Source of the DNA: Trypanosoma brucei
Taxonomy: Eukaryota
Assembly (NCBI GenBank): GCA_000002445.1
Contig: CP000069.1
Span: 384,001 to 448,000, forward strand
Direction: 5' to 3'
Length of the DNA stretch: 64,000 bases
In this document: piece after piece, positions 5,986 to 20,560 of the stretch
Layout: each line of letters opens with the position of its first letter
How positions within the stretch are numbered: position 1 is the first letter of the stretch
Translations under genes and position numbers: made by a program
Notes under the pieces: generated by a model
The model's input: the letters and a program-made list of their open reading frames with translations, nothing else
The model's database searches: none
Told to the model about the DNA's origin: nothing

Positions 5986-8900
5986 TCAGAAAAGCACATC
6001 GGGCCCATGCCCTTGCTTCGTGTTAACACCTTTTGTCACCTGTAGGGATCTTGAAAGTGTGCCTTTCTCAGGCTCAGCGGCTCCTCCCACCTGCGAAGTG
6101 GCGTTGAAATCGCACGCAGCATGCGCATGAAAGTTGCGTATGTCAACTCGATGGCGCCGTAACAACTCAGCGAGGTTCGGTGAAGGCAAATAACTGGGTA
6201 GTACGGTGGGAATGAGAAAGAGTTTTTCATTCGTTCCGCCGGTGTTAACTCTTGGCACCCCTTTTGTTGGTATAATTGTCCCATCGACGTCCCCCATGGC
6301 CACCAGAGTGCTGGGTGGGGAGAGAAACTGGCAGCCGATATCACGGAGTAGATTTTCTATCGACTGGCCGCGGCGAGAAGCCACGAGCCTCGCTAACAAT
6401 TCCGCTCCTGGGCAATGTCCCACCGCCGCCGCTGCCGCTGGAGGTCTCAATTGTGGTTGTTGAGCGTTAGACCACGCGTTAAGTTTTGCGACCACCCGTT
6501 GAATGTAATCGGCGAAACTCACAACATTTCGCAAAGAGTTTTGGTACTCATGCAACACAATCAGCAGTGTACTCTGAACTACCTCATCCACAGATGGTGC
6601 GTCGTCGTCCAACACTACCTTTAGAATTCCCCTCCTCGTTTGCCGCCCCTTCCCGCCGCTGCCACTGTACGTACACTGCGGGCACACATCGGACACAACG
6701 CACCAATGCAAACTTTCCTCCTCACAAGCACCTCCCGCATCGTCTTTACGACATCGGTTCCCACTTTCGCTAGATTGATCGGTTGCCGTGCCGCCTGCCT
6801 CGCACTCATCATCAGCATCGACGGGTACGCCTCGCCACGGCTTTCCGGCATAAACCCTCATAACACTCTTCAGTTTCTGCACACTCAATGGAGTTGGAAA
6901 GCGCCACACTCCCCAATCATGTAGCATCACTGCATGCGCTCGTGTATGCGCGGTGTTCGTCAGTAGAGCGGCGTCAAAACCAGTGGAGGCAGCGGCAAGA
7001 TATCCTGCGAGAACAAACAGCGAGGGCGGCAATTCACTACCTGCGGGTTCAGTGGAGGCGCCAGGGCGCTCAGTGTCCAAAACCCAGACATGTAACGCTT
7101 GCAGCGTCATACCACTATCTTTTATTGGCGCTGCGCGAGTTACTGTGTAGGAGGGAGCATTTCCTATAAGCGTGCCCGCAACGGCCATCGGCAGCATCGC
7201 TGTCCCCCCTTCACCACGTGGTCGCCATTGTAGAGCGTTAAGAAACGACAAGGGGGATACATTACAGGATCTAAGTTCAACCGCCACATCGCTACGACTG
7301 ATGCTACTGACACTATTAGTCCCCCTCTTACGTAGTAGAAGGTCAGATAACGTGCCGCTACAGAAAGATCCCACCCACTCACGCCGCATACCGAACTGCA
7401 CAGCAAAGGAAAGTCGAGTAAGGTGGGTTACGCTCCGACAGTGATGATGGAAGCTTTTTTCCCGAAACCACAAATTGTGGCACACATAGCAGTAATAATC
7501 CTTATTACAAGGTGCTGTTTCCCCCTCCTCCGTTTCACAGCTGTGGTACTCGTGTTGAGAGGACCTCACAGTTGGCAAAGTTACCTTCCATTGAACCGCT
7601 CCAGTGAAGGTCACACGATGTATGCTTAGCAGTGCGTGTTGTTCGTCACTACCATCACTATTCACTCCACTGCTACTCACATCTTCATCAACACCGGGCG
7701 CAGGTACAGGCTCGCCTGACAAGATGACACCGTTACCAGTTGAACGGCAGATGCTACAGTCCTCATGGTCAGCATCGGCGGCTGCAGCCGCAATCGGTTT
7801 GGGAAAAAATTCTTCATAGCCCATACGCCGTGCGTCACTAAGAAGAAGGGAATGCTCCCGACCGTAGCTATCGTGCCATGTTACACAGGTATCAGATGCA
7901 GCAGAGGAATCTCCCTCAGTTTCTGTAAAGCGGAGACTAAACGTACGGTTGACCGTCCTTACACCCGGAACTGGAAGTGAACGATCCAAAGAAGCTACTT
8001 TTTCATGAGCCTCTGCCCGCCGAATCGATTCCGTCTCCCCATCGTTTCTGTCCTGCTCACCTGGTAAACGTACGGCTGATGACGCCGGTGGTGATGTGGG
8101 AGGCAGCATTGCCACCAGCCGTGTTAGTATATTCTGAATTGACACCAAAAGACTTATTCCAATAGGAGCTAATACAACCGCAGCCAAATTTCTTCCCTTT
8201 TCCGCTTCCATTAACCCTGCGGGGTCACAAGGCAGTGCGACCGCCGATAACAACCGGTCCTCTTCCTTACCTGAGTTGCCGCCTCTTCTGTCTCCATCCA
8301 CAGACCCATTAACCTCGCTACCAAATCGAACGACACCTGAACGCCTCGTGGAAAAAAGTTCAATCTGTTGAACATTGGTATCGGCTAGATATGGCGTAAT
8401 GACGTCGCGCAGCACCTCTGGTGTCAGGCGTTCAAGTAAACTCTGCTGATGCCGCTGGTCGCTGTGTAGCTCCACCGAAAAGGAGCATGTACGGTCTGCA
8501 TCCTCCTGCAGGGCACCAAGGTTACGCAGCATCCGCCTCTGGTGTGCACGGTGGGATGCATCCTCGCCACGCATGGTGTTCCTTGCAAATGCGGCTACGA
8601 AAGCTGCGCAAAGCCGGTCTTGTACGTGTCCAAATGTAAGCAGCGGTTTCTTGGACCTCTGATTCTGCTTTGGAGCCCTGGGCAATTGCGGTTGAAGTTT
8701 TCGGATAAGTTGTTCATCTTGTGTATACCATTGTGTCATAGTCCGGTGCTGTGATGAAGGACGGTGGGCGGAATGCTCAAGCGCGCAACGGTGAAGCCGC
8801 AGCAACGAATTGGCAAGTAGAACACGGTACGATTCAGGGAAGGTGGAGAGCACAAGCTGCTTAATAAGTGAGGCGCTGGGGCGGCGTTCCACCCTGTCAT

Positions 8901-9393
8901 GCTCACCATATAGCGCAAATACGTCATCTTTATCGCCACCCCCCACACCACTAGTGACAGCTTTTTCCTTATTCACAGTTTCATGTGAGTCGGAACCCTG
9001 TGTGACAAGTCTCCACAGGCGTAACGCGCACTGTGCCACGCTGCTATCTACAGTGCGAAGTGCCCTACCGTTCACGCGAAATTTTCGAAAAAAGGCCACC
9101 ACATCCGCACTGCTAGTACATGCGTACCATTCATAAAGGATTGAAAGCAGCATGAGTGGTTCACTCAGAGTGTGCCCACTGGTGCTTTTGCCCCTCTCTC
9201 CGATTTTAGAAGCTGTACTCCGCTGAATCAGAAGTGACTGCAAGTATTGTGCTGCTGGTGCACCTTCGCAGCTTTTGGAATCCCCAACCTGGACAGACAC
9301 GCGTGGATAGAGAAGTAACGCCGGAACAGTCATTGCGCAGGCGATAAGTATCGCATCCTCGATGCAGGCAAACTGCAAAGCATAGTACAACAT
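5986..9393 (-). CDS. hypothetical protein (about 1135 aa) with a U1/matrin-type C2H2 zinc finger-like motif
   Basis: This is a long ORF. It contains the motif CYVCHNLWFREKSFHHHCRSVTHL, which has C-x2-C-x12-H-x5-H spacing. The track start at 9432 decodes as TTG and overlaps the upstream helicase ORF. The first ATG (MLYYALQ) is at 9393, which removes the overlap. Confidence 0.55.
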   Translation of the reverse strand: MLYYALQFACIEDAILIACAMTVPALLLYPRVSVQVGDSKSCEGAPAAQYLQSLLIQRSTASKIGERGKSTSGHTLSEPLMLLSILYEWYACTSSADVVAFFRKFRVNGRALRTVDSSVAQCALRLWRLVTQGSDSHETVNKEKAVTSGVGGGDKDDVFALYGEHDRVERRPSASLIKQLVLSTFPESYRVLLANSLLRLHRCALEHSAHRPSSQHRTMTQWYTQDEQLIRKLQPQLPRAPKQNQRSKKPLLTFGHVQDRLCAAFVAAFARNTMRGEDASHRAHQRRMLRNLGALQEDADRTCSFSVELHSDQRHQQSLLERLTPEVLRDVITPYLADTNVQQIELFSTRRSGVVRFGSEVNGSVDGDRRGGNSGKEEDRLLSAVALPCDPAGLMEAEKGRNLAAVVLAPIGISLLVSIQNILTRLVAMLPPTSPPASSAVRLPGEQDRNDGETESIRRAEAHEKVASLDRSLPVPGVRTVNRTFSLRFTETEGDSSAASDTCVTWHDSYGREHSLLLSDARRMGYEEFFPKPIAAAAADADHEDCSICRSTGNGVILSGEPVPAPGVDEDVSSSGVNSDGSDEQHALLSIHRVTFTGAVQWKVTLPTVRSSQHEYHSCETEEGETAPCNKDYYCYVCHNLWFREKSFHHHCRSVTHLTRLSFAVQFGMRREWVGSFCSGTLSDLLLRKRGTNSVSSISRSDVAVELRSCNVSPLSFLNALQWRPRGEGGTAMLPMAVAGTLIGNAPSYTVTRAAPIKDSGMTLQALHVWVLDTERPGASTEPAGSELPPSLFVLAGYLAAASTGFDAALLTNTAHTRAHAVMLHDWGVWRFPTPLSVQKLKSVMRVYAGKPWRGVPVDADDECEAGGTATDQSSESGNRCRKDDAGGACEEESLHWCVVSDVCPQCTYSGSGGKGRQTRRGILKVVLDDDAPSVDEVVQSTLLIVLHEYQNSLRNVVSFADYIQRVVAKLNAWSNAQQPQLRPPAAAAAVGHCPGAELLARLVASRRGQSIENLLRDIGCQFLSPPSTLVAMGDVDGTIIPTKGVPRVNTGGTNEKLFLIPTVLPSYLPSPNLAELLRRHRVDIRNFHAHAACDFNATSQVGGAAEPEKGTLSRSLQVTKGVNTKQGHGPDVLF

Positions 9394-9403
9394 TAATGCT
9401 TGC

Positions 9404-12370
9404 TCATGAGGTATGGGGGAAGTATGAGACAAACTCCCCCTTTGCGGTTAAACAAACGTCGTTGTAGAGGTCGATCAAACGTGGCATGTCCTTAGATAAT
9501 TCAAGGCAGCTATCACCTATACAATGAACATCGTCACCACTCCTTTGTTTCGGGCTTTTGGAGCACTGTAGAAGTCCCAGGTCTAAGAGCTGTCGGATGC
9601 CCTGTGCTATCGCCTTCGGTTTAGGTGCATCTGGTAGTAATAACAACAGCGAACTTGCCTGGTGAGGAAACAAGTACTTGACCCGAAGCAGCAATGAAGC
9701 TACATTGGCTGCGGCACTCTCAGGAATTGTGTGTGCAGGCGCCGCCGGAACCAAGCCGCTCAAACTCCTCTGGTTGCTGGTCAGAAAGAAAGCTTTCCCG
9801 CTTTCATTGTCTTCCCCCCTATTATCCTTTACTTTCCCATCATCACCCTTTTCGTCTGAAGTGACTAGCTCTTCCTGTCCACAATTGCCGTAGTGGGTCC
9901 CCACAACCTCCTTTTGGAGTGTGAACATACGCCTCGGAGCCAAACGAATAACAAAACTATCGCAGGTCCTTCCAGCCCTCCCCGCACGCTGCCGTGAGCT
10001 GCTAACGCTGACGACAGCCGTGCTGCGGAGCGTGACACCTGTTAATGGATCAGAAAAGAATCGCCGCTCGAGGCAAGAGTCTACAACACAACGCACGTTA
10101 GGAATGGTGACGGAGCTCTCAGCAACGTTCGTTGACAAAATAATTCGATAAGGGAACGGAGAGGTAGTTTCACGTAGTTGTCGTTGTGGACTTCCAACTG
10201 CCGTGGCGTGCAGGAGGGCAACAGAAAATGAACATCCTTCGTACTCCAAAAATGTGACATTTCCGCTACCCGCGTTGTCGTAAGCATAGTTCATCGTGCT
10301 ATCAACACTAATTTTGGTGGTGGTACCCGCAGGTTCTGCATGTCGCTGGGTATCATTAGTCCCTTCGTCGTTTACAAGCGTTTTTCTGCACAGAACTTCA
10401 AGAGATTGCAACACAAGGGACATTTCAGCAAACCCGGGAAGAAACACCAATATGCTCTCCGGTTGCTCGTTGTTTTGATCTTGAGTAATCCCCCCTTTCT
10501 CTTGCACGGCACCACTCCCCTCAGTCGTGTGGGGCTTTGACCTACAGCTGGCTAGGTTCGCGATGCTTTGTAGCGTGAAGAGTACAAATTGTGCCAGTGC
10601 ACGTGCCTGAGGAGAATGTATCTCGGGGCTAAAACGTATATATGAAAAGAAGTGCACCAACGAAGCCATCACTCGGCGTGCGGGCGGTAGCAACAGGGGA
10701 CACAACCTTCCATTTAGCGAGGATACTACTTTACTTCCGTTATCCGCACTCTTCTCATCAGCACCCAACAGCTGCGACGACTCCAGGGCGCTGGGAAGGT
10801 CGTCGATGAAATACTCCTCAAGACGATAGGGACCACTTCCCGCTAAGCCGCTGCGCACTGCAACGTCCGAAACCTCATCCGGTAGCTGGGCTGCCTCATT
10901 GCCTAGAGAGAGAACATACGGTTTGCAGAAAGCGGAAAGATTCCTCGTTGCTTCAGACGGTGGTGCGCTAAACTGCGCACCTATGAGATAAGATACCATT
11001 TGCTCTGCCGAAAGCGTGGCAGACATCAAAATCAGATGGCGCATGCCCCAAGATTGTTCCCTGTCTTCACCATGCTCTCGTTGGTAAGCCCTAAGCAACT
11101 GTTGTTTTGCCCACGCAAGAAGCAAATCCGTTTCCATATCACGACAGTGTGCCTCATCGATGATCAGTGTCGTGTGAGACAGTAAACTGTGGTCGTGCTG
11201 CAAAGCGTTGAGTATGTAGCCGGGCGTAGCGTATATGATTTCACTTGCAGCTGAGAAACAGCTGTCGCCGCCGACTGCGTAGCCCACGCGGTCGCCAACG
11301 TTGGATGCCGCCGGTGTTGACGAAGACGACGCCAAAATTGCTGCTGTAAACTTTGCCAGCTCCACGCACGCAAGACGCGTGGGTTGTGACACTATAATAC
11401 AAAGCCTACTGCTCGCACCAAACACTGTAGCGTACTCCCGCGTGCTGACATTAACAGGGAACGGAGAAGGCGGCAGAAACGTCTCAACTGACCTCATTAC
11501 ACCTTCTTTAGAATCGATGACACTACTACTGGCGGCAGAGGACACAATTTTCGCTTTGTGAGAGATGTCAATTCGTTGTAACATGCGCTGCCAGTGGCTG
11601 TCCAGAAGAAACAGTGGAACCAAGCTGCTTTTCCCCGAGCCAGTCGGCGCGTTGCACACAAACACGTCCGTTACTGGCTGCGGAAAATCAGTTAAAATTG
11701 CGGCGGGTTCGTTTCCTCCGTTATTCTTTAACCGTTTAGCGCTTGCAGGAGGAAGGGGGACTGCTGAGTTTGCGAGAAACAAATTGGTCCATTCGGATCG
11801 CTTCTGCCATACGCCCAGGCGCTGAAGTGACGGATAACTCTGCGCCACGCACTGCCAATCCATTTGTTTGCGGAGTACATTCTCTCGCAATTTACTAATA
11901 AGCGATGATGAAACAACAGGCTTTCCCTGTGCAACAAAGGCTCGGGGTTTTGGAACCACCCTCCCACGAGCCTCGAGCGGGGTATTCGATTTTGCAGTCG
12001 ATGTGAAAATTTCCGCAAGCATAGTACCAACAGGCTTTGGAGACACGCCAACGGTGGGCCCCGCTTTTGGCTTCTTCCGCTTAGAAATTGTCTCAAGCAG
12101 TTTACTCATGCCGTGAGCGCCGTTCTTGCTAGAAATAGTGCGTTCGTTAACGTCACATCTTCCTTCAAGGTCTGTGGTGGGTTCGGTGCAATTCGGTGAA
12201 TTAACAACTGGGTTCTCGACCGGTTCTGTCGCTTCTGTCAGATTGTCAACACGCGTGAAGTTGTCACCTGAGCCTATTTTAGTTGAATACGGTCTATTTA
12301 TCTGATATAGAACGATACGCCGCAACAGCGTACGGTGATCTTCGCGTAGCACCAACACAAAGCGATGCAT
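9404..12370 (-). CDS. DEAH-box ATP-dependent RNA helicase
   Basis: The ATG start is verified (CAT at 12368-12370). The helicase motifs are I APTGSGKS, II IIDEAHCRD (DEAH), III SATL, V-like STNVAESSVTIPNV and VI QRAGRAGR. Confidence 0.8.
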   Translation of the reverse strand: MHRFVLVLREDHRTLLRRIVLYQINRPYSTKIGSGDNFTRVDNLTEATEPVENPVVNSPNCTEPTTDLEGRCDVNERTISSKNGAHGMSKLLETISKRKKPKAGPTVGVSPKPVGTMLAEIFTSTAKSNTPLEARGRVVPKPRAFVAQGKPVVSSSLISKLRENVLRKQMDWQCVAQSYPSLQRLGVWQKRSEWTNLFLANSAVPLPPASAKRLKNNGGNEPAAILTDFPQPVTDVFVCNAPTGSGKSSLVPLFLLDSHWQRMLQRIDISHKAKIVSSAASSSVIDSKEGVMRSVETFLPPSPFPVNVSTREYATVFGASSRLCIIVSQPTRLACVELAKFTAAILASSSSTPAASNVGDRVGYAVGGDSCFSAASEIIYATPGYILNALQHDHSLLSHTTLIIDEAHCRDMETDLLLAWAKQQLLRAYQREHGEDREQSWGMRHLILMSATLSAEQMVSYLIGAQFSAPPSEATRNLSAFCKPYVLSLGNEAAQLPDEVSDVAVRSGLAGSGPYRLEEYFIDDLPSALESSQLLGADEKSADNGSKVVSSLNGRLCPLLLPPARRVMASLVHFFSYIRFSPEIHSPQARALAQFVLFTLQSIANLASCRSKPHTTEGSGAVQEKGGITQDQNNEQPESILVFLPGFAEMSLVLQSLEVLCRKTLVNDEGTNDTQRHAEPAGTTTKISVDSTMNYAYDNAGSGNVTFLEYEGCSFSVALLHATAVGSPQRQLRETTSPFPYRIILSTNVAESSVTIPNVRCVVDSCLERRFFSDPLTGVTLRSTAVVSVSSSRQRAGRAGRTCDSFVIRLAPRRMFTLQKEVVGTHYGNCGQEELVTSDEKGDDGKVKDNRGEDNESGKAFFLTSNQRSLSGLVPAAPAHTIPESAAANVASLLLRVKYLFPHQASSLLLLLPDAPKPKAIAQGIRQLLDLGLLQCSKSPKQRSGDDVHCIGDSCLELSKDMPRLIDLYNDVCLTAKGEFVSYFPHTS

Positions 12371-12909: not shown

Positions 12910-14283
12910 CATTGCAACATCATGAAGCGGCGCTAAGTGATGTGTGTTTGGGTCACTATCGCACGACTCAGCTGCCGGCCGCACTCATCAAGAGAGAGAG
13001 AGAGGTACGCATGTATGTATATATATATATATTACAAAGTGAGTGTGCAGCCAAAGGGACATTGCGTGTGTGAGCGTGTGCCCGGGACGGGTGGCGAAAA
13101 TACAGGTCAAAAGGGAGCACTTCACGACAGTGATAACACAAGCACGTATCCGAACAACTTTCACAAACCCCATCCATATTCAGAATAAGGAAAAAACATG
13201 GAAGTACAAACAATTTGGATATGAAAACGCTTTTCTTTGGCATTATTGGGGCAGGGTGTGTATGCAGAGCCCACTGTTTCTAATGGGATTCGAACCCTTC
13301 TGCAGCTCCCAGGCACAGGACTATTGGATAGATCTGTCAACAGAAAACATTTCCGTTAGTGAGAAGGTCTGATCAAGGTCTATAGCTTTTGAAGCACTGA
13401 GCTGTGGCACTTGTTTGAACCTTTTCCTCTTCAACATGTCGCGAGTTTCGATTAGAAGTTTACCATACGACAACGACTGGTTGTTCATAAGCATGCACGT
13501 GATACACTGCGTGGCCGCACCACCAGCGCCTGTAGAACCCGTACCAAATGTGGCAGTGTTCTTAACATCAGCAGATGTTTGCTCATCAGCACAACCAGAA
13601 ATCATCATCACATCCCCCAGAACATCATTTCCCTCACGAATTCGCTTCATGTGTGGCGTACCCGATGCTTGCTCACCTCCACTGCAGACATAGGTAAAAG
13701 GAAGATCCATAATGGAGCCTGAGTGGCAACAATCGAACACAGCTGTGAGTCGTACCTTTTCAGGAAGCCTAGAGAAGAGAAGTTTGTGTATATCATCATC
13801 AACAATGCATCCACTTTTCTGGAAGTCCACAGGGGCAATGCATTGATCGTACTTCTCGTCACTGTCGCCTCTGGATTTGCATTGTGTACCATGACCAGAG
13901 TAATGGAAGAAAAGGACATCACCTGGTTTTGCATCCTTCACGAGCCACGCCATGTAACGTACGATATTGTCGCGGGTTGGCTGGTCGGTCCTCCCGGGGA
14001 AATTGTCCTCGTCGACGAGTATGACGGCTTCGTTGATTGGGAGCCCCTTTTTCTGCAGTGTGGCGAGCATTTGCTTGACATCATTGCAGCAACCGGAGAG
14101 CGCTGCAGAAGTTCCATAGTAATTAATTCCAATAAATAAAGCTCGAACTGTTTGGCCAGGAAGAGGTGTCGCGACCCATGGTTGTTCGCCGTGAGCATCC
14201 CCCGCATTTGCAACAGCGGCATCTACGTCCACCTTGGGGGGAGGTGGTTGAAGTCCCAGAGCTTGTACAAGGTACGGCTGGGC
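12910..14283 (-). repeat. segmental duplication block A (MCA3 body plus 3' flank)
   Basis: It is near-identical to 15759..17136, apart from an AT-dinucleotide indel near 13016 and a divergent patch at 14182..14217. Homology ends abruptly at about 14284, inside the N-terminal coding region. Confidence 0.9.
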
Positions 14284-14394
14284 TGTCTGCCACAGTTCCA
14301 TACCAATTTTCACAAAATCATTGGTGCCCTTTGCACTACTTGCTTTTGATATTGTAGAGCAGAGACTCAAAAGACACCTTGGGTCCACGGCCAT
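13321..14394 (-). CDS. MCA3: metacaspase (clan CD, family C14), 357 aa; matches MCA3
   Basis: The His/Cys catalytic dyad contexts HYSGHGTQ and DCCHSGS are present, and the ATG at 14392-14394 is verified. The 357-aa length and the N-terminus differing from its 347-aa neighbour match the T. brucei MCA2/MCA3 pair as I recall it. Confidence 0.85.
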   Translation of the reverse strand: MAVDPRCLLSLCSTISKASSAKGTNDFVKIGMELWQTAQPYLVQALGLQPPPPKVDVDAAVANAGDAHGEQPWVATPLPGQTVRALFIGINYYGTSAALSGCCNDVKQMLATLQKKGLPINEAVILVDEDNFPGRTDQPTRDNIVRYMAWLVKDAKPGDVLFFHYSGHGTQCKSRGDSDEKYDQCIAPVDFQKSGCIVDDDIHKLLFSRLPEKVRLTAVFDCCHSGSIMDLPFTYVCSGGEQASGTPHMKRIREGNDVLGDVMMISGCADEQTSADVKNTATFGTGSTGAGGAATQCITCMLMNNQSLSYGKLLIETRDMLKRKRFKQVPQLSASKAIDLDQTFSLTEMFSVDRSIQ

Positions 14395-14430
14395 CTATAT
14401 GTACCTTTTCCTTGTAAATGTTAATGTTGT

Positions 14431-14713
14431 AGCAAGAGCTTCTACCACTGTATTATTTTACTGCAGTGTTTAGTACTGAGGGTCTGAAGGGAAGTCATGG
14501 GGGAACAGAGTGCCGAACAAGATACCTTGGAATAAGCAGAAAACAACTGCAACCGATGATAACATAGCATTTGGTTTACTCACATTACCTTCCCCCGCCC
14601 CGTCATATGCGCCCTTCTGTGGGCTGCATGAAGAAAGGGAATGGGGAATGAATCAATAGTGTGTTGAAAATACCACAATTCCTCGAAACATCCTGTTGCC
14701 ATCACTCTGCAAA
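14431..14713. repeat. duplicated 283-bp upstream block (copy 1, upstream of MCA3)
   Basis: It is near-identical to 17281..17564. It lies 37 bp upstream of the MCA3 ATG and 64 bp upstream of the MCA2 ATG. Confidence 0.85.
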
Positions 14714-15758
14714 TTCTGGTCTTGCACGTGATGGTGTTGTTCAGTGAAGGCCTTGTTTGAGTGAGGTAAGAAACTAGCTACCACATTCCTTTTCAAAAGA
14801 AAAAAAAGAGGGGAAATAATCAGGAAAGCGAAAGCTAAACGTTCTTCTCCCCCGCATTAAACACAGCATAAGAAAATCATGTATGCCCACCGCAGCAGGG
14901 ATCCGGTGCACACACGAAAAAAGCGATGCAAAGACACTTCATCGGTTTCTCTTTCCCACCCTTTGTGGCAAAACAAGCAGCCTCTATTTTCCCTCCACCA
15001 AGCTTTTGTGTGGAATCGTTGCCATACCATAAAGGAGATGTCTAACGTCCCGTCTTCTCCACCCCTTTGATTTCAGGCTTGTTTTCCTCTTCCCTTCTCA
15101 AATCTGCAACAGTAAACAACACACTCCAACATTCCTTAACGACACTCCATCAGTTATGATGGCATCGAGTAACGATTGGTAGGAATATATTGTCGCTCAT
15201 TGGAGGAAGAAGAGGGGGAGGAGTAAGAAACAGAGGGATGGGTGGGTGGGTTTGCTCCGTACTGTTATCCAAAATTGTAGAATAATTAAAATGACAAAGG
15301 TAAAACACACATAAAAAGTAAATTGTGTTGACGAGGTGACAACCCCTCACCGAAACAACAACAAAAAGGGGCGCCCATACCAAGTCACAGGGAATTACAC
15401 CCCGCCAGAGTTATTCAAAAGTTAAAGTGGGCAAACAAGAAAACGCACTCCAGAGCGAGTGCAAAAGTGGATAGTTGCCACACAAACACACAAAAGGAGC
15501 TACTAAGAGGCGAAAAAAAAAATGACAGAGCATTTTATAAGATAACAGTCTCAACACGAATAAAAAAATTTCAACTAAGCGACACCTGTTTCATGAAAGA
15601 AGGCGCCGCCAAGCATATTACACAGGATAAAGATCCGTAGGAAGCAGGAAGGGGTGAGGAACATCAGTCAGCCTCCCCACCAAAAAAAACAACAACAACA
15701 TCATCAGACATTTAAACAAAGACCCAGATAACACCCTCACAACAGCCACTTGTGCTTA

Positions 15759-17136
15759 TTGCAACATCATGAAGCGGCGCTAAGTGATGTGTGTTTGGGT
15801 CACTATCGCACGACTCAGCTGCCGGCCGCACTCATCAAGAGAGAGAGAGAGGTACGCATGTATGTATATATATGTATATATATTACAAAGTGAGAGTGTG
15901 CAGCCAAAGGGACATTGCGTGTGTGAGCGTGTGCCCGGGACGGGTGGCGAAAATACAGGTCAAAAGGGAGCACTTCACGACAGTGATAACACAAGCACGT
16001 ATCCGAACAACTTTCACAAACCCCATCCATATTCAGAATAAGGAAAAAACATGGAAGTACAAACAATTTGGATATGAAAACGCTTTTCTTTGGCATTATT
16101 GGGGCAGGGTGTGTATGCAGAGCCCACTGTTTCTAATGGGATTCGAACCCTTCTGCAGCTCCCAGGCACAGGACTATTGGATAGATCTGTCAACAGAAAA
16201 CATTTCCGTTAGTGAGAAGGTCTGATCAAGGTCTATAGCTTTTGAAGCACTGAGCTGTGGCACTTGTTTGAATCCTTTCCTCTTCAACATGTCGCGAGTT
16301 TCGATTAGAAGTTTACCATACGACAACGACTGGTTGTTCATAAGCATGCACGTGATACACTGCGTGGCCGCACCACCAGCGCCTGTAGAACCCGTACCAA
16401 ATGTGGCAGTGTTCTTAACATCAGCAGATGTTTGCTCATCAGCACAACCAGAAATCATCATCACATCCCCCAGAACATCATTTCCCTCACGAATTCGCTT
16501 CATGTGTGGCGTACCCGATGCTTGCTCACCTCCACTGCAGACATAGGTAAAAGGAAGATCCATAATGGAACCTGAGTGGCAACAATCGAACACAGCTGTG
16601 AGTCGTACCTTTTCAGGAAGCCTAGAGAAGAGAAGTTTGTGTATATCATCATCAACAATGCATCCACTTTTCTGGAAGTCCACAGGGGCAATGCATTGAT
16701 CGTACTTCTCGTCACTGTCGCCTCTGGATTTGCATTGTGTACCATGACCAGAGTAATGGAAGAAAAGGACATCACCTGGTTTTGCATCCTTCACGAGCCA
16801 CGCCATGTAACGTACGATATTGTCGCGGGTTGGCTGGTCGGTCCTCCCGGGGAAATTGTCCTCGTCGACGAGTATGACGGCTTCGTTGATTGGGAGCCCC
16901 TTTTTCTGCAGTGTGGCGAGCATTTGCTTGACATCATTGCAGCAACCGGAGAGCGCTGCGGAAGTTCCATAGTAATTAATTCCAATAAATAAAGCTCGAA
17001 CTGTTTGGCCAGGAAGAGGTGTCGCGACCCATGGCTGGTGGCCATGAAGGCCTTTTGCGTCTCTGAAAGCGGCATCTACGTCAACCCTCCGGGGAGGTGG
17101 TTGAAGTCCCAGAGCTTGTACAAGGTACGGCTGGGA
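15759..17136 (-). repeat. segmental duplication block B (MCA2 body plus 3' flank)
   Basis: Partner of 12910..14283. Confidence 0.9.
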
Positions 17137-17217
17137 GCTCACTGCGTTTAACCAGCCGAGCCCCACATAATCAGCTAACTGGCCCGCATCACAGAGTTGT
17201 GTAATTAAGGAGCACAT
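16174..17217 (-). CDS. MCA2: metacaspase (clan CD, family C14), 347 aa; matches MCA2
   Basis: From residue 29 onward it is identical to the 13321..14394 protein except for a small divergent patch and a single R to G change (MLKRKGFKQV). The catalytic His and Cys are intact, and the ATG at 17215-17217 is verified. Confidence 0.85.
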   Translation of the reverse strand: MCSLITQLCDAGQLADYVGLGWLNAVSSQPYLVQALGLQPPPRRVDVDAAFRDAKGLHGHQPWVATPLPGQTVRALFIGINYYGTSAALSGCCNDVKQMLATLQKKGLPINEAVILVDEDNFPGRTDQPTRDNIVRYMAWLVKDAKPGDVLFFHYSGHGTQCKSRGDSDEKYDQCIAPVDFQKSGCIVDDDIHKLLFSRLPEKVRLTAVFDCCHSGSIMDLPFTYVCSGGEQASGTPHMKRIREGNDVLGDVMMISGCADEQTSADVKNTATFGTGSTGAGGAATQCITCMLMNNQSLSYGKLLIETRDMLKRKGFKQVPQLSASKAIDLDQTFSLTEMFSVDRSIQ

Positions 17218-17280
17218 ATTATTTTTCTACTGTCTGCGGATGTGCGTGGAAAATTATGCCTCAAGTGTATGTTAGTATCG

Positions 17281-17564
17281 TAGCAAAAGCTTCTACCACT
17301 GTATTATTTTACTGCAGTGTTTAGTACTGAGGGTCTGAAGGGAAGTCATGGGGGAACAGAGTGCCGAACAAGATACCTTGGAATAAGCAGAAAACAACTG
17401 CAACCGATGATAACATAGCATTTGGTTTACTCACATTACCTTCCCCCGCCCCGTCATATGCGCCCTTCTGTGGGCTGCATGAAGAAAGGGAATGGGGAAT
17501 GAATCAATAGTGTGTTGAAAATACCACAATTCCTCGAAACATCCTGTTGCCATCACTCTGCAAA
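17281..17564. repeat. duplicated 284-bp upstream block (copy 2, upstream of MCA2)
   Basis: Partner of 14431..14713. Confidence 0.85.
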
Positions 17565-18053: not shown

Positions 18054-20411
18054 CTATGATACTTCGGTGCTTTTTAAGCTCTCTTGCATGTTGGCCAGTT
18101 CTTGCTCTTGTTCCAAAAGCCACTCCATCCCGCCCTTTGAATTGAATTCTTCGTGTGCTTTTGCATACTTGGCCAACTCCTTTGAAAGCTTCTTCAGTTC
18201 CTTTTCCCCAACTACTTCACCACGTGAGTTACTGGTGGGGAGTCCAGTTTCCTCGTCGAAGGTGGCGTACACACTCCCGCTTTGCATCTTGAAGTAATCT
18301 TTCGGAGAGGATGTGTAATTCCTCCACTTTTCCACAAGCTTCTTCTTTGTCTCAATTTGGTTCTGCAACTTCCTCCGCCTGTCGTTGGCCTGTTGCTCTC
18401 TCCGCTCAGAGATTTCCCGCAGCAAAACGGCTGGGTCGTCTCTCTTCCACGTGGTTGGCCCATTGGGACTGTCCTCTATTCGGATACCGGCCTGTGCAAG
18501 CCATTCGTCCCGGATAGCGTCACATAAGGGAAGAAAGTTTGCTGTTGTACCGCTAGCCTTAGCTTCACTACGTACTGAATCGCGGAAGCGAAGCAAAGCT
18601 TCCATCACAGGTACCAATTGGTCATCCGTTTGTCGTGTTTTTGTGAAACCAACCATGTCATTCCCATCCACCACACCAAATACCTGTAGTATCCGGGTAA
18701 CATAACGACCGACCTTGTGCACCAATGTGGCACTGGGGCGTTGTCCTGTGACAAGATACCGGTTTGTCTCGCTCACAAGTCCCATGATCGCTTCCATAGC
18801 GGTGGGGGTGTCAAAGTTGTTGCGCAATGCCGCGTCCACGGCGCTCTCGGTGGAAATCCAGGCCTCATTCAACTTGCGGTCGTGCTCATTGAAGCCCTGT
18901 ATTTCTTTCAGTGTATCACTTCGAAGCACCATATCAACACTTCCAAAGAAAGAACGCAAAACTCTTTCGCGCTCCTTTGCCTCGTCAATGCTTTGATCAG
19001 AGAAATTCATTGCCTTATTCCATTGGTTTGCAAGAAAAAGGAGCCGCATCGTACGCGGAGTTACACCCAGGTCATCCAAAGCATGACGAATAGTAATGAA
19101 ATTCTTCAGACTCTTGCTCATCTTCAGCCCTTTAATGTGTAGGTGACCGCAGTGCAAAAAATAGTTCACCCATTGATGTTGCATACTGTATGCTTCACTC
19201 TGTGCACACTCGTTGTCATGGTGTGGAAACTTCAGGTCGCATCCACCACTATGAATATCCATATTTGTGCCGAGTATATCAGAGGCCATAACCGAGCACT
19301 CAATGTGCCAACCCGGTCTTCCGGCACCCCAAGGTGAAGGCCAGTGGGGTTCACCAGGCTTTGAGAATTTCCACAGCGCGAAATCGTTGGGACTCCGCTT
19401 CTCACCGGCAACACATGCGGCAAGTGCGCCCTCACCTTCCGCCATTTCGGCTTCGGTCGTGTTGCATTCATCGCGCTCGCTTATGGGCTTTAGCTTTGGA
19501 TAGTTGTGCCCCGCCCGTATGAAAGCGGTCGTATCAAAGAACACCGAAGTTTCGCCAGAATAGGCGAAACCGTTGTCCATAATCCTTTGAATAAAGTTGA
19601 CCACTTGCGGAACATACTCTGTCACGCGCGTAATGACATCAGGATCCTTCACCCCGAGGCGCTTCATATCTTCAAAAAAAAGCCGCTCATAACGCCGTGC
19701 ATGATCATCAAATATTTTTTGGTCGGTCACAGTGTGACCCTCGAGCTGGTCCAGCAGGTCACCGTTAATACCTGAGGCCGCATCAAACAGTTCGTCAAAG
19801 TCGCCAGCCTTAATAGCGCTTTGAATACGACCACTTGTGTCACTGAACTGTGTTTCCTTAAGTGCGAGTTCCATGATTTTCTCTTCCCTCTCCATCCGAA
19901 CACGGCTAGAAGTACCCTCTGGCAGCGCTTGCGACAACTTTTCCCTCGTCTCCGAGAGGGCACGCGAAGCCGATCTCTGCGCTTCCACTGTAAATTTAAC
20001 AAGTTTCTCCATATTACCACCCTCAAGAGTCACATCGCGAAAATGACGCAAAAGTGAAGAAACCCTCGCCCGCTTAATAATCTTATCGTCAATATCCGTA
20101 ATATTCATCTGATAAATTACTTTATACCCAAAGAAATCTTCCATAATGCGCCGTAGGATATCAAAAGTAAGGTAAGCGCGCGCATGGCCCATATGAGAGA
20201 CATCATATACCGTTGGCCCACAAGTGTACCACCGCACCAACCGCCCCTCACGAGGTGCAAACTTCTCAAGGCACTCAGTCATGGAATTAAGAACACAAAC
20301 ATCATTGCCATCAACATTCAAAGGCGGATACCACGGCGGATGTCGAGAACGTTTCACAGGTTCACACACATTCAAACCATCTGCTAATAACAAACCGTCA
20401 CTTTCCTTCAT
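18054..20411 (-). CDS. cysteinyl-tRNA synthetase (class I aaRS), 785 aa
   Basis: The HIGH-type motif HMGHARAY sits in the CysRS-typical context YTCGPTVYD, and the KMSKS motif is present. Track codons 1-27 (FVSFTTFRFSL...) translate the polypyrimidine tract. The true ATG (MKESDG) is at 20409-20411. Confidence 0.85.
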   Translation of the reverse strand: MKESDGLLLADGLNVCEPVKRSRHPPWYPPLNVDGNDVCVLNSMTECLEKFAPREGRLVRWYTCGPTVYDVSHMGHARAYLTFDILRRIMEDFFGYKVIYQMNITDIDDKIIKRARVSSLLRHFRDVTLEGGNMEKLVKFTVEAQRSASRALSETREKLSQALPEGTSSRVRMEREEKIMELALKETQFSDTSGRIQSAIKAGDFDELFDAASGINGDLLDQLEGHTVTDQKIFDDHARRYERLFFEDMKRLGVKDPDVITRVTEYVPQVVNFIQRIMDNGFAYSGETSVFFDTTAFIRAGHNYPKLKPISERDECNTTEAEMAEGEGALAACVAGEKRSPNDFALWKFSKPGEPHWPSPWGAGRPGWHIECSVMASDILGTNMDIHSGGCDLKFPHHDNECAQSEAYSMQHQWVNYFLHCGHLHIKGLKMSKSLKNFITIRHALDDLGVTPRTMRLLFLANQWNKAMNFSDQSIDEAKERERVLRSFFGSVDMVLRSDTLKEIQGFNEHDRKLNEAWISTESAVDAALRNNFDTPTAMEAIMGLVSETNRYLVTGQRPSATLVHKVGRYVTRILQVFGVVDGNDMVGFTKTRQTDDQLVPVMEALLRFRDSVRSEAKASGTTANFLPLCDAIRDEWLAQAGIRIEDSPNGPTTWKRDDPAVLLREISERREQQANDRRRKLQNQIETKKKLVEKWRNYTSSPKDYFKMQSGSVYATFDEETGLPTSNSRGEVVGEKELKKLSKELAKYAKAHEEFNSKGGMEWLLEQEQELANMQESLKSTEVS

Positions 20412-20414
20412 CGC

Positions 20415-20560
20415 AAAGCTGCAATTAAAAGAAAACGAAGTTCTGAAAAAATAACGTAAAGAAAAACGAAACGTTGTAAAAGATACAAACAACTAAAAAA
20501 AGTAAAAAAAAAGAACTAAAGCAAAAAAAGGAAAGGAAAAAAGAAAATAGCAAACAAATA
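20415..20560 (-). promoter_or_regulatory. long polypyrimidine tract immediately upstream of the CysRS ATG
   Basis: The + strand is A/G-rich (aaaagaaaacgaag...ggaaaggaaaaaagaaaatagc). The ORF track translates it as an F/S/T-rich pseudo-N-terminus. Confidence 0.6.

What the first reader, a model, noticed from the sequence alone, without database searches (positions are those of the whole stretch)
12910..17564. MCA3/MCA2: tandem metacaspase paralogues homogenised over the body and 3'UTR, with a sharp breakpoint that replaces the N-terminus and upstream region
The 1.37-kb blocks 12910..14283 and 15759..17136 cover about 320 codons of each gene plus about 410 nt of 3' flank. Over that span they are essentially identical. 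The only amino-acid difference is R versus G in MLKRK[R/G]FKQV. The 3' flank differs by an AT-dinucleotide indel (atatatat versus atatgtatatatat). Identity ends abruptly at about 14284/17137. The N-terminal 38 residues of MCA3 and 28 residues of MCA2 are unrelated, and the proximal upstream sequence is unrelated too. A separate 283-bp block further upstream (14431..14713 and 17281..17564) is duplicated again. This mosaic of conversion tracts with discrete breakpoints implies that the catalytic bodies are kept identical by gene conversion. The N-terminal extensions (MCA3 MAVDPRCLLSLCSTISKASSAKGTNDFVKIGMELW and MCA2 MCSLITQLCDAGQLADYVGLGWLNAV) evolve or are maintained separately. Both N-termini carry Cys residues near the start that could be lipidation sites, which would fit membrane or endosome targeting.
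Basis: partly seen in the sequence, partly recalled or inferred. Interest (0 to 1): 0.5.

Follow-up and report, generated by a model that had tools for sequence, protein, structure and literature searches.

The report
Trypanosoma brucei MCA2/MCA3 metacaspase tandem pair
These are the two well-studied neighbouring metacaspase genes MCA2 and MCA3 of Trypanosoma brucei: ongoing gene conversion keeps their catalytic parts and flanks nearly identical while the N-terminal ends stay different, which confirms and refines what was already known.

Summary
The duplication is real. The window is T. b. brucei TREU927 chromosome 6, and the two ORFs are exactly MCA3 (Tb927.6.930) and MCA2 (Tb927.6.940).

- Near-perfect identity covers codons 72-357 plus 410 nt of 3' flank, with 4 substitutions and 2 indels.
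- It ends at 14181/17034, not at 14284/17137.
- Next come a 56-nt patch at 61% identity (10 amino-acid differences), a 45-nt perfect island, and about 154 nt of strongly diverged sequence.
- Further upstream lies a 277-nt perfectly identical block.

Gene conversion is supported. Against T. b. gambiense, 8 sites in the identical blocks are shared by both paralogues within a strain but differ between strains, and none is paralogue-specific. The diverged zone shows the reverse pattern.

The N-termini are not unrelated. MCA2 codons 1-25 align in frame with MCA3 codons 11-38 (48% nt identity, 0 of 5000 shuffles). MCA3 keeps the ancestral N-terminus. MCA2 has lost the first 10 codons, including the conserved Cys7.

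Published work already reports 89% identity, divergence only at the N-terminus, and palmitoylation of MCA3. T. theileri and T. melophagium show the same mosaic. Interest is low to moderate.

The parts
13321..14394 (-). MCA3 coding sequence (Tb927.6.930), 357 aa, with the ancestral-type N-terminus
   Evidence: ORF. Identical to TREU927 MCA3, P0123. Pfam Peptidase_C14, E = 1.2e-42. Its N-terminus scores 43.4 bits against a profile of orthologue N-termini built without it, reached by 0 of 2000 shuffles.
16174..17217 (-). MCA2 coding sequence (Tb927.6.940), 347 aa, with an N-terminus shortened by 10 codons
   Evidence: ORF. Identical to TREU927 MCA2, P0125. Matches PDB 4AFR/4AFP/4AF8 over 347/347 residues apart from the engineered C213 mutation and G315R. 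An in-frame TAG lies 4 codons upstream of the ATG (read from the sequence).
12911..14181 (-). Homogenised tract, MCA3 copy: codons 72-357, the stop codon and 410 nt of 3' flank
   Evidence: Differs from 15758-17034 by 4 substitutions and 2 indels. Against DAL972 it holds 6 concerted sites and 0 paralogue-specific sites.
15758..17034 (-). Homogenised tract, MCA2 copy: codons 62-347, the stop codon and 3' flank
   Evidence: Same alignment.
14182..14237 (-). Zone B, MCA3 copy (codons 53-71). Its counterpart is 17035-17090 in MCA2 (codons 43-61), which includes the MCA2 Lys55 autoprocessing site.
   Evidence: 34/56 nt identical with no indel. Third codon positions are 9/19 identical. All differences are paralogue-specific in both strains. 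MCA2 K55 corresponds to MCA3 G65. Lys55 is named as an autoprocessing site in the review PMC12914765.
14238..14282 (-). Perfect 45-nt island (counterpart 17091-17135). It encodes QPYLVQALGLQPPP, including the active-site-blocking Tyr (MCA2 Tyr31, MCA3 Tyr41).
   Evidence: Identical in all four sequences, two paralogues in each of two strains. Third positions are 15/15 identical between the paralogues but 3/15 identical with T. congolense. The role of Tyr31 is from PMC4357240.
14283..14436 (-). Zone A, MCA3 copy: the proximal 5' UTR (42 nt) and codons 1-37. The counterpart is 17136-17287 in MCA2 (proximal 5' UTR plus codons 1-27).
   Evidence: About 50% identity, and every difference is paralogue-specific in both strains. 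Residual in-frame homology at an offset of +10 codons: 36/75 nt identical against 18.6 +/- 3.7 for shuffles.
14437..14713 (-). Upstream block U, MCA3 copy: 277 nt identical to 17288-17564. It holds two polypyrimidine tracts, each followed by an AG, so it probably carries the trans-splice acceptor and the distal 5' UTR.
   Evidence: Two concerted sites against DAL972, at 14657 and 14602. PolyY/AG map. The splice-site role is inferred.
17288..17564 (-). Upstream block U, MCA2 copy
14714..15757 (-). Unique 1044-nt spacer between the MCA2 3' flank and the MCA3 upstream block
   Evidence: No similarity to any other part of the window. 97.3% identical to the DAL972 orthologous spacer, which gives the neutral distance between the strains.

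Best explanation
This is the known tandem pair of type I metacaspase genes MCA2 and MCA3 of T. brucei. It lies between the cysteinyl-tRNA synthetase gene and a large DEAD/DEAH-type helicase gene.

A single ancestral gene with a long N-terminus (consensus MGFDxxC) was duplicated long ago. Since then, repeated non-reciprocal recombination (gene conversion) has homogenised three tracts:
- a 277-nt upstream block that probably carries the trans-splicing signal;
- a 45-nt island encoding the active-site plug QPYLVQ;
- 1.27 kb comprising codons 72-357 plus 410 nt of 3' flank.

Two short stretches have escaped conversion and have diverged almost to saturation: the proximal 5' UTR with codons 1-37, and codons 53-71. 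MCA3 keeps the ancestral N-terminus, including the conserved Cys7. MCA2 has lost the first 10 codons and now starts at the equivalent of MCA3 Leu11.

The outcome is one shared catalytic body and shared UTR ends, with two different N-terminal gatekeeper or address modules. Conversions that would erase this difference are presumably removed by selection.

Shown here: the mosaic, the concerted site pattern, the residual N-terminal homology, and the polarity (MCA3 ancestral). Inferred: selection as the reason the N-terminal zones escape conversion, the splice-signal role of block U, and the independence of the duplication from the one in T. theileri.
For: - Identity of the genes.
- Mosaic structure.
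- Conversion after the strains split: 8 concerted and 0 paralogue-specific sites in the identical blocks, against 0 concerted and about 130 paralogue-specific sites in 14182-14436.
- R/G315 and I/V346 variants occur in both paralogues across strains and clones.
- Within-genome paralogue divergence is 0-0.3% at substitutions. The neutral divergence between strains is 2.1-2.7%.
- Identity is not just selective constraint. Third codon positions are 283/286 identical in the body and 15/15 in the island, compared with 118/286 and 3/15 against T. congolense. The non-coding blocks have no counterpart in the T. congolense flanks.
- The duplication is old. Third positions in zones A and B are only 22/46 identical, close to the level between T. 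brucei and T. congolense.
- Polarity: the MCA3 N-terminus matches the orthologue profile at 43 bits, the MCA2 N-terminus at only 3.3 bits. The in-frame +10-codon homology is the best of all offsets. Cys7 is conserved in every long-form orthologue aligned. T. conorhini has a single copy at the syntenic locus.
- The same mosaic occurs in T. theileri and T. melophagium: 63 orthology against 7 concerted sites in the 5' flank plus the first 120 nt of coding sequence, and about 155 concerted against about 8 orthology sites in the body plus 250 nt of 3' flank.
- Function, from the literature: 89% identity with divergence only at the N-terminus, MCA3 palmitoylated, and MCA3 alone processing MCA4 in vivo (PMC3220528). 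The N-terminal 70 residues act as a gatekeeper and Tyr31 blocks the S1 pocket (PMC4357240).
Against: - Only two complete genomes could be compared, and the 8 concerted sites are few in absolute terms.
- Selection as the reason for escape from conversion is inferred. Once divergence is high, conversion tracts also stop there for purely mechanical reasons, because homology is lacking.
- The MCA2 N-terminus scores only marginally against the orthologue profile (p about 0.03). Its homology therefore rests mainly on the comparison with MCA3.
- Whether T. congolense has an MCA2-type copy could not be seen, because the contig ends 475 nt upstream of its gene. The age of the duplication is therefore only roughly bounded.
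- The published statement that MCA3 is palmitoylated and MCA2 is not may rest on peptides from the identical body. This is my own caveat; the primary paper was not held.
Confidence: 0.85

Rival explanations
1. Recent duplication followed by replacement. The pair is young, which would explain the identical bodies. In one copy, the N-terminus and proximal upstream region were replaced by unrelated DNA at a sharp breakpoint.
For: Zone A is only about 50% identical and needs gaps to align. The alignment of the coding parts with unequal lengths is no better than shuffles ('coding' test).
Against: - In-frame ungapped homology at exactly +10 codons: 30/63 identical, the best of 112 offsets tested. 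Overall 36/75 against 18.6 +/- 3.7 for shuffles, reached by 0 of 5000.
- The protein local alignment score was reached by 2 of 1000 shuffles.
- A second diverged patch (zone B) without indels lies on the other side of a perfect island. A single replacement breakpoint does not explain this.
- Concerted sites against DAL972 require homogenisation after the strains split, so the identity is not simply youth.
- No donor sequence exists in the window.
Confidence: 0.05
2. Purifying selection alone, without recombination, keeps the bodies and UTR blocks identical.
For: The catalytic domain is strongly conserved across trypanosomatids.
Against: - Synonymous third positions are 283/286 identical between the paralogues but 118/286 identical with T. 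congolense.
- The 410-nt 3' flank and the 277-nt upstream block are identical yet have no counterpart in T. congolense.
- Eight strain-specific variants are shared by both paralogues.
Confidence: 0.02
3. Assembly artefact. The identical bodies are a collapse or copy-paste of more divergent copies in the reference assembly.
For: The T. equiperdum short-read contig is visibly scrambled at this locus. It has 20 N, out-of-order N-terminal pieces and a 249-aa 'MCA2' in the MCA3 position.
Against: - Two independent assemblies, TREU927 and DAL972, give the same two-gene structure with the same boundaries.
- Independently cloned genes (UniProt Q8T8E6 and Q8T8E7, and the PDB construct) agree with them.
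- Each copy carries private variants: 4 SNPs and a 2-nt indel in TREU927 MCA3.
Confidence: 0.03
4. Unequal crossing-over, with cycles of array expansion and contraction, homogenises the copies rather than non-crossover gene conversion.
For: - Copy number at this locus varies among species: one in T. conorhini, two in T. brucei and T. theileri, four in T. melophagium, three or more in T. cruzi, and long arrays in T. vivax.
- This shows that unequal exchange does happen at this locus.
Against: - Crossing-over in the body would swap or lose an N-terminal type or the unique 1044-nt spacer. Both strains instead keep the same two N-termini, the same spacer and the same order.
- Three separate homogenised tracts interrupted by unconverted zones fit short conversion tracts better.
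Confidence: 0.1

Closest known systems
T. brucei metacaspases MCA2 and MCA3 (Tb927.6.940 and Tb927.6.930), as described by Szallies 2002, Helms 2006, Moss 2007, Proto 2011 and McLuskey 2012
   Same: - The protein sequences are identical to the TREU927 entries.
- I compute 316/357 = 88.5% identity, matching the published 89% with divergence only at the N-terminus (PMC3220528).
- All published functional residues sit at the published numbers: Tyr31, Lys55, Cys92, Asp95, Ser156, His158, Cys213, Lys268, and Asp173/189/190/220.
   Different: Nothing differs at the protein level. What this analysis adds is at the DNA level: a five-part mosaic, evidence for conversion after the strains split, and MCA2's N-terminus as a truncated, diverged derivative of the ancestral MCA3-type N-terminus. 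I found no paper in the searchable library that states these points.
Concerted evolution and gene conversion in T. brucei tandem gene arrays (Jackson 2007, PMC1855330)
   Same: Coding sequence and UTRs are homogenised within the genome. Conversion tracts can span start or stop codons or lie wholly within UTRs. Divergent copies come with remodelled flanks.
   Different: That study does not mention the metacaspase pair (0 occurrences of the gene IDs or of 'caspase'). Here the array has only two members, and the unconverted part is an internal island of about 255 nt flanked on both sides by converted tracts.
The T. theileri and T. melophagium tandem metacaspase pairs (357 aa plus 351 aa) at the syntenic locus
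   Same: They lie between CysRS and the helicase. The N-terminal 40 or so codons and the 5' flank follow orthology. The body and about 250 nt of 3' flank follow species, which indicates concerted evolution. The boundary falls just upstream of the PYxVQ motif.
   Different: - The gene order is reversed: the ancestral-type copy lies next to CysRS.
- The derived copy has an internal deletion of 6-7 residues and keeps the MGCDxGC start, instead of losing 10 N-terminal codons.
- There is no homogenised upstream block.
- The duplication was probably independent (inferred).

Membership tests
Metacaspase (peptidase family C14B, type I) | Caspase-like Peptidase_C14 domain | tested here: met
   PF00656, E = 1.2e-42 and 146.7 bits for both ORFs. 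The top PDB hits are TbMCA2 structures at E about 1e-239, followed by yeast and plant metacaspases.
Metacaspase (peptidase family C14B, type I) | Catalytic His-Cys dyad and the four Ca2+-binding aspartates | tested here: met
   MCA2 has His158, Cys213 and Asp173/189/190/220. MCA3 has the same residues at +10. Numbering follows PMC4357240.
Metacaspase (peptidase family C14B, type I) | Arg/Lys-specific, Ca2+-dependent peptidase activity | not testable with these tools
   Reported for recombinant MCA2 and MCA3 in PMC3220528.
Paralogues under concerted evolution (gene conversion) | Paralogues within a genome share variants that distinguish genomes | tested here: met
   8 concerted and 0 paralogue-specific sites in the identical blocks, TREU927 against DAL972.
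Paralogues under concerted evolution (gene conversion) | Identity extends to synonymous and non-coding sites that are not conserved between species | tested here: met
   Third positions are 283/286 identical between the paralogues and 118/286 with T. congolense. The non-coding flanks are not alignable with T. congolense.
Paralogues under concerted evolution (gene conversion) | Discrete tract boundaries, with unconverted segments showing an orthology pattern | tested here: met
   In 14182-14436 all of about 130 informative sites are paralogue-specific in both strains.
Paralogues under concerted evolution (gene conversion) | Direct observation of conversion events, and of non-crossover versus crossover products | not testable with these tools
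   This needs population long-read data or experimental crosses.
N-terminally S-acylated (palmitoylated) membrane-associated proteins | Cysteine(s) close to the N-terminus | tested here: met
   MCA3 has Cys7 and Cys12. Cys7 is conserved in every long-form orthologue aligned. MCA2 has Cys2, equivalent to MCA3 Cys12, and Cys9.
N-terminally S-acylated (palmitoylated) membrane-associated proteins | Hydroxylamine-sensitive acylation shown experimentally on those cysteines | not testable with these tools
   PMC3220528 cites a palmitoyl-proteome study for MCA3 being the only active palmitoylated MCA. The primary paper was not held. The sites have not been mapped as far as I could read.

The most novel reading that the evidence does not exclude
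At the CysRS-helicase locus of trypanosomes, tandem metacaspase paralogues may recurrently evolve as one shared, conversion-homogenised catalytic body plus 3' UTR carrying alternative N-terminal modules.
- The conversion boundary sits just upstream of the PYxVQ active-site plug in two lineages that were probably duplicated independently: T. brucei, and T. theileri with T. melophagium.
- In T. brucei, the derived copy MCA2 lost the ancestral 10-residue tip with the conserved Cys7. That loss would explain why only MCA3 is membrane-bound and processes MCA4.
- The second unconverted patch carries the paralogue-specific Lys55 autoprocessing site.

On this reading the mosaic would be a selectively maintained device for sub-functionalising localisation and activation without letting the enzyme core diverge.
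Probability: 0.35. Interest if true: 0.45.

Novelty: already known. Interest (0 to 1): 0.25.

Why it matters
The gene pair, its 89% identity, its N-terminus-only divergence and the palmitoylation of MCA3 are all published. Gene conversion in T. brucei tandem arrays is textbook. The finding therefore mainly rediscovers known biology.

What this check adds is modest but practical.
- Only about 255 nt (14182-14436 and 17035-17287) distinguish the two genes. RNA-seq reads, RNAi fragments, probes, and proteomic peptides (including those from palmitoyl-proteome studies) that fall outside this zone cannot tell MCA2 from MCA3.
- MCA3 is the ancestral form and MCA2 is a truncated derivative lacking Cys7. 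This gives a concrete and testable reason for their different behaviour in vivo.
- The same conversion-protected N-terminal module in the T. theileri group suggests the arrangement is selected rather than accidental.

Tried and rejected
- Exact-protein look-ups of the window's MCA2 and MCA3 returned nothing. The identical TREU927 entries do exist in the cluster table, so I reached the locus through the DAL972 proteins instead.
- The T. congolense contig ends 475 nt upstream of its gene and contains no internal repeat. I could not establish whether an MCA2-type copy exists there.
- The T. equiperdum contig is scrambled and contains N, so it was unusable as a third genome.
- A profile of orthologue N-termini scores the MCA2 N-terminus only marginally (3.3-3.8 bits, p about 0.03). 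The first two attempts at this test failed on a command-line option conflict.
- A global DNA alignment of the coding parts with unequal lengths was not significant. The in-frame ungapped test was significant.
- Mapped splice and polyA sites for Tb927.6.930/940 were not found in the supplements of three transcriptome papers. The splice-acceptor role of block U therefore remains an inference from polyY/AG motifs.
- The McLuskey 2012 paper and my guessed id for the palmitoyl-proteome paper were not held. Structural and acylation statements come from secondary sources.
- The AlphaFold2 model of MCA3 from a 17-sequence alignment has pLDDT of 39-65 over the first 50 residues. That is too weak to say how the N-terminus packs, so I ran no fold search.
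- I considered an ancient duplication shared with T. theileri. I judge it less likely because the gene order is reversed, the indels differ, and T. conorhini has a single copy. It is not excluded.
- I considered whether MCA3 lost Lys55 to avoid cutting off its own anchor. I dropped the idea because MCA3 has other Lys/Arg residues at positions 17, 22, 29 and 54.

Full report
**What is there**

The window carries two minus-strand ORFs, 13321-14394 (357 aa) and 16174-17217 (347 aa). Upstream in the direction of transcription is a cysteinyl-tRNA synthetase gene (18054-20492). Downstream is a DEAD/DEAH-type helicase gene that starts at 12370. Both ORFs hit Pfam Peptidase_C14 at E = 1.2e-42. The 347-aa ORF matches the crystallised T. 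brucei metacaspase MCA2 (PDB 4AFR, 4AFP, 4AF8) over all 347 residues, apart from the engineered Cys213 mutation and G315R. The two proteins are letter-for-letter the TREU927 entries for MCA3 and MCA2. The window is therefore T. b. brucei TREU927 chromosome 6, genes Tb927.6.930 and Tb927.6.940. The gene number for MCA3 is confirmed in PMC2771046 and in a supplement of PMC2916883.

**Checking the observation**

The duplication is real and far beyond chance. Segments 12911-14713 and 15758-17564 align as one blastn HSP of 1822 columns at 94% identity, and nothing else in the window resembles them. In gene sense, using MCA3 coordinates:

1. Block U, 14713-14437: 277 nt, 100% identical to 17564-17288.
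2. Zone A, 14436-14283: 42 nt of proximal 5' UTR plus codons 1-37, about 50% identical and requiring gaps.
3. An island, 14282-14238: 45 nt, perfectly identical.
4. Zone B, 14237-14182: codons 53-71, 34/56 nt identical, no indel.
5. The body and 3' flank, 14181-12911: codons 72-357, the stop codon and 410 nt of flank. It differs from 17034-15758 by 4 substitutions and two indels of 4 and 2 nt.

A unique 1044-nt spacer (14714-15757) separates the two units.

So is the statement that R/G is the only amino-acid difference over about 320 codons. There are 11 differences, ten of them in MCA3 residues 38-70. Overall identity is 316/357 = 88.5%. This is the published figure of 89% with divergence only at the N-terminus (PMC3220528).

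**Is it gene conversion?**

I fetched the orthologous locus of T. b. gambiense DAL972 (L001). It has the same order: CysRS, MCA2, MCA3, helicase. I then aligned the four units.

- Inside the identical blocks, eight sites have one base in both TREU927 paralogues and another base in both DAL972 paralogues: 14657, 14602, 13714, 13558, 13329, 13250, 12966 and 12932. No site there is paralogue-specific.
- Inside 14182-14436, all of about 130 informative sites are paralogue-specific and none is concerted.
- The boundaries are the same in both subspecies.

This is the classic signature of homogenisation after the lineages split. Block U must have been converted separately from the body, because the zone between them was not overwritten.

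Amino-acid variants behave the same way. I/V346 is I in both TREU927 genes and V in both DAL972 genes. R/G315 occurs in MCA3 of TREU927 and in the PDB clone of MCA2.

Within-genome divergence in the blocks is 0 of 277 nt and 4 of 1271 nt. This is below the neutral distance between the strains, which is 2.1-2.7% in the unique spacer.

Purifying selection cannot explain the identity. Third codon positions are 283/286 identical in the body and 15/15 in the island, against 118/286 and 3/15 between T. brucei and T. congolense. The non-coding blocks have no counterpart in the T. congolense flanks.

Assembly collapse is unlikely. Two independent assemblies and independently cloned genes agree, and each copy carries private variants.

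**The N-termini are diverged homologues, not unrelated sequence**

In an alignment with orthologues from ten other Trypanosoma species or paralogues and from Leptomonas, MCA3 aligns from residue 1. The consensus is MGFDxxC...NYxxxGxxLxKxAxPYxVQYLG. The MCA3 N-terminus scores 43.4 bits against a profile built without it, reached by 0 of 2000 shuffles.

The MCA2 N-terminus scores only 3.3-3.8 bits (p about 0.03). Against MCA3 directly, its local alignment score of 34 compares with 18.1 +/- 3.7 for shuffles, reached by 2 of 1000.

At the DNA level, the best of all ungapped offsets is exactly +30 nt, which is in frame (30/63 identical; the next best offset gives 24). With the one 3-codon gap, 36/75 nt are identical against 18.6 +/- 3.7 expected, reached by 0 of 5000 shuffles.

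MCA2 Met1 therefore corresponds to MCA3 Leu11. Four codons upstream of the MCA2 ATG there is an in-frame TAG (sequence). MCA2 is thus a derivative that has lost the first ten codons, including Cys7, which is conserved in every long-form orthologue. MCA2 Cys2 corresponds to MCA3 Cys12, and MCA2 Cys9 is new.

All three codon positions are about equally diverged in zone A. Third positions in zones A and B together are 22/46 identical. This is only slightly more similar than T. brucei compared with T. congolense. The duplication is therefore old, and the identical bodies say nothing about its age.

**Mapping onto function**

This section rests on the literature and on residue positions. According to McLuskey and Mottram (PMC4357240), the first 70 residues of MCA2 form an N-terminal region that lies on the enzyme surface, crosses the active site and acts as a gatekeeper. 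Tyr31 sterically blocks the S1 pocket.

- Tyr31 (Tyr41 in MCA3) lies in the perfect island, QPYLVQALGLQPPP.
- MCA2 autoprocesses after Lys55 and Lys268 (review PMC12914765). Lys55 lies in zone B and is Gly65 in MCA3. It is Glu in T. b. gambiense MCA2.
- Proto et al. 2011 (PMC3220528) report several relevant points. The N-terminal difference does not change substrate specificity. Only MCA3 processes the membrane-bound pseudopeptidase MCA4 in vivo. MCA3 is the only active T. brucei metacaspase found palmitoylated. MCA2, MCA3 and MCA4 are expressed more strongly in bloodstream forms.

Loss of the Cys7-bearing tip in MCA2 offers a simple sequence-level reason, but this is inference. One caveat of my own: peptides from the identical body cannot distinguish the two proteins in proteomic lists.

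**The non-coding blocks**

Block U contains two polypyrimidine tracts, each followed by an AG (14648-14630 then AG at 14625; 14543-14529 then AG at 14527). The copies upstream of MCA2 are identical. It is therefore probably the trans-splicing signal plus the distal 5' UTR. Together with the shared 410-nt 3' flank, this would give both mRNAs the same processing and regulatory ends. I could not retrieve mapped splice or polyA sites, so this remains inferred.

**Wider context**

- The syntenic locus holds one gene in T. conorhini.
- At least one gene lies next to the helicase in T. congolense, where the contig is truncated.
- T. cruzi has three copies about 4.5 kb apart.
- T. theileri has a 357-aa plus 351-aa pair.
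- T. melophagium has that pair twice.
- T. vivax has long arrays of 340- and 350-aa genes elsewhere in its genome.

In T. theileri and T. melophagium the four-sequence test gives the same mosaic. The 5' flank plus the first 120 nt of coding sequence show 63 orthology sites against 7 concerted sites. The rest of the coding sequence plus about 250 nt of 3' flank show about 155 concerted against about 8 orthology sites. That boundary also lies just upstream of the PYxVQ motif.

Gene order there is reversed, with the ancestral-type copy next to CysRS. The derived copy has an internal deletion rather than a terminal truncation. I therefore regard that duplication as probably independent, though this is not proven.

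**Comparison with what is known, and verdict**

The genes, their near-identity, the N-terminus-only divergence, the gatekeeper role of the N-terminus and the palmitoylation of MCA3 are all published. Gene conversion with tracts spanning coding sequence and UTRs is well documented for T. brucei tandem arrays (Jackson 2007, PMC1855330). That paper does not mention this pair, and I found no open-access paper describing concerted evolution of MCA2 and MCA3.

Its details do not hold: a single sharp breakpoint, unrelated N-termini, and one amino-acid difference. I rate the feature as already known and of low to moderate interest.

The most novel reading still open is that a conversion-protected N-terminal module is a recurrent, selected way of sub-functionalising trypanosome metacaspases. 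It would need more genomes and N-terminal swap experiments to establish.

Noticed in passing
window 9404-9432, C-run at about 9415-9419 (gene sense, minus strand): The helicase gene downstream of MCA3 is split in this window into two overlapping ORFs, 9404-12370 (988 aa) and 5986-9432 (1148 aa). The cause is one extra C in a run of C. T. b. gambiense (L001) and T. equiperdum (L011) have CCCC and an intact 2127-aa ORF. This is either a reference sequencing error or a strain-specific frameshift.
   Followed up: partly
L003:8001-11252 (T. theileri); L004:1329-4557 and 8001-11229 (T. melophagium): Tandem 357-aa plus 351-aa metacaspase pairs at the syntenic locus show the same conversion mosaic: the N-terminus follows orthology, and the body plus 3' flank follow species. 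T. melophagium carries the whole pair twice, about 6.7 kb apart and 98-100% identical.
   Followed up: yes
L005-L008 (T. vivax SOPI01000095.1 and SOPI01000705.1): Long head-to-tail arrays of 14 or more metacaspase genes per 21-kb locus, 340 and 350 aa long, at a period of about 1.54 kb. The 340-aa type lacks the ancestral MGFDxxC N-terminal tip, which parallels the MCA2 truncation.
   Followed up: no
L011:1-2673 (T. equiperdum CZPT02000448.1): The gene annotated 'MCA2' (249 aa) sits next to the helicase, in the MCA3 position. Upstream of it are 20 N and out-of-order pieces of both the MCA2-type and MCA3-type N-terminal zones. The two genes were probably collapsed in the short-read assembly.
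   Followed up: partly
L001:4170-5213 (T. b. gambiense MCA2): T. b. gambiense MCA2, and the identical UniProt Q8T8E7 sequence, have Glu instead of the Lys55 autoprocessing residue, plus Q71R. The published Lys55 cleavage site is therefore not conserved even within T. brucei.
   Followed up: no
window 16270-16272 (MCA2 codon 315): The crystallised MCA2 construct has Arg315, as TREU927 MCA3 does, whereas TREU927 MCA2 has Gly315. The R/G variant thus segregates across both paralogues.
   Followed up: partly
L009:5468-6539, 10001-11077, 14512-15542 (T. cruzi): Three metacaspase copies lie about 4.5 kb apart downstream of CysRS. The first is broken into several tblastn pieces, so it is probably frameshifted, and it was not called as a gene.
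   Followed up: no
window 13321-14394 (MCA3 residues 1-75) and 16174-17217 (MCA2 residues 1-75): MCA2 has no Lys or Arg before residue 43. MCA3 has Lys/Arg at residues 6, 17, 22 and 29, and then none between 54 and 84. For proteases that cut after Lys/Arg, the two N-terminal regions therefore offer different self-cleavage options.
   Followed up: no
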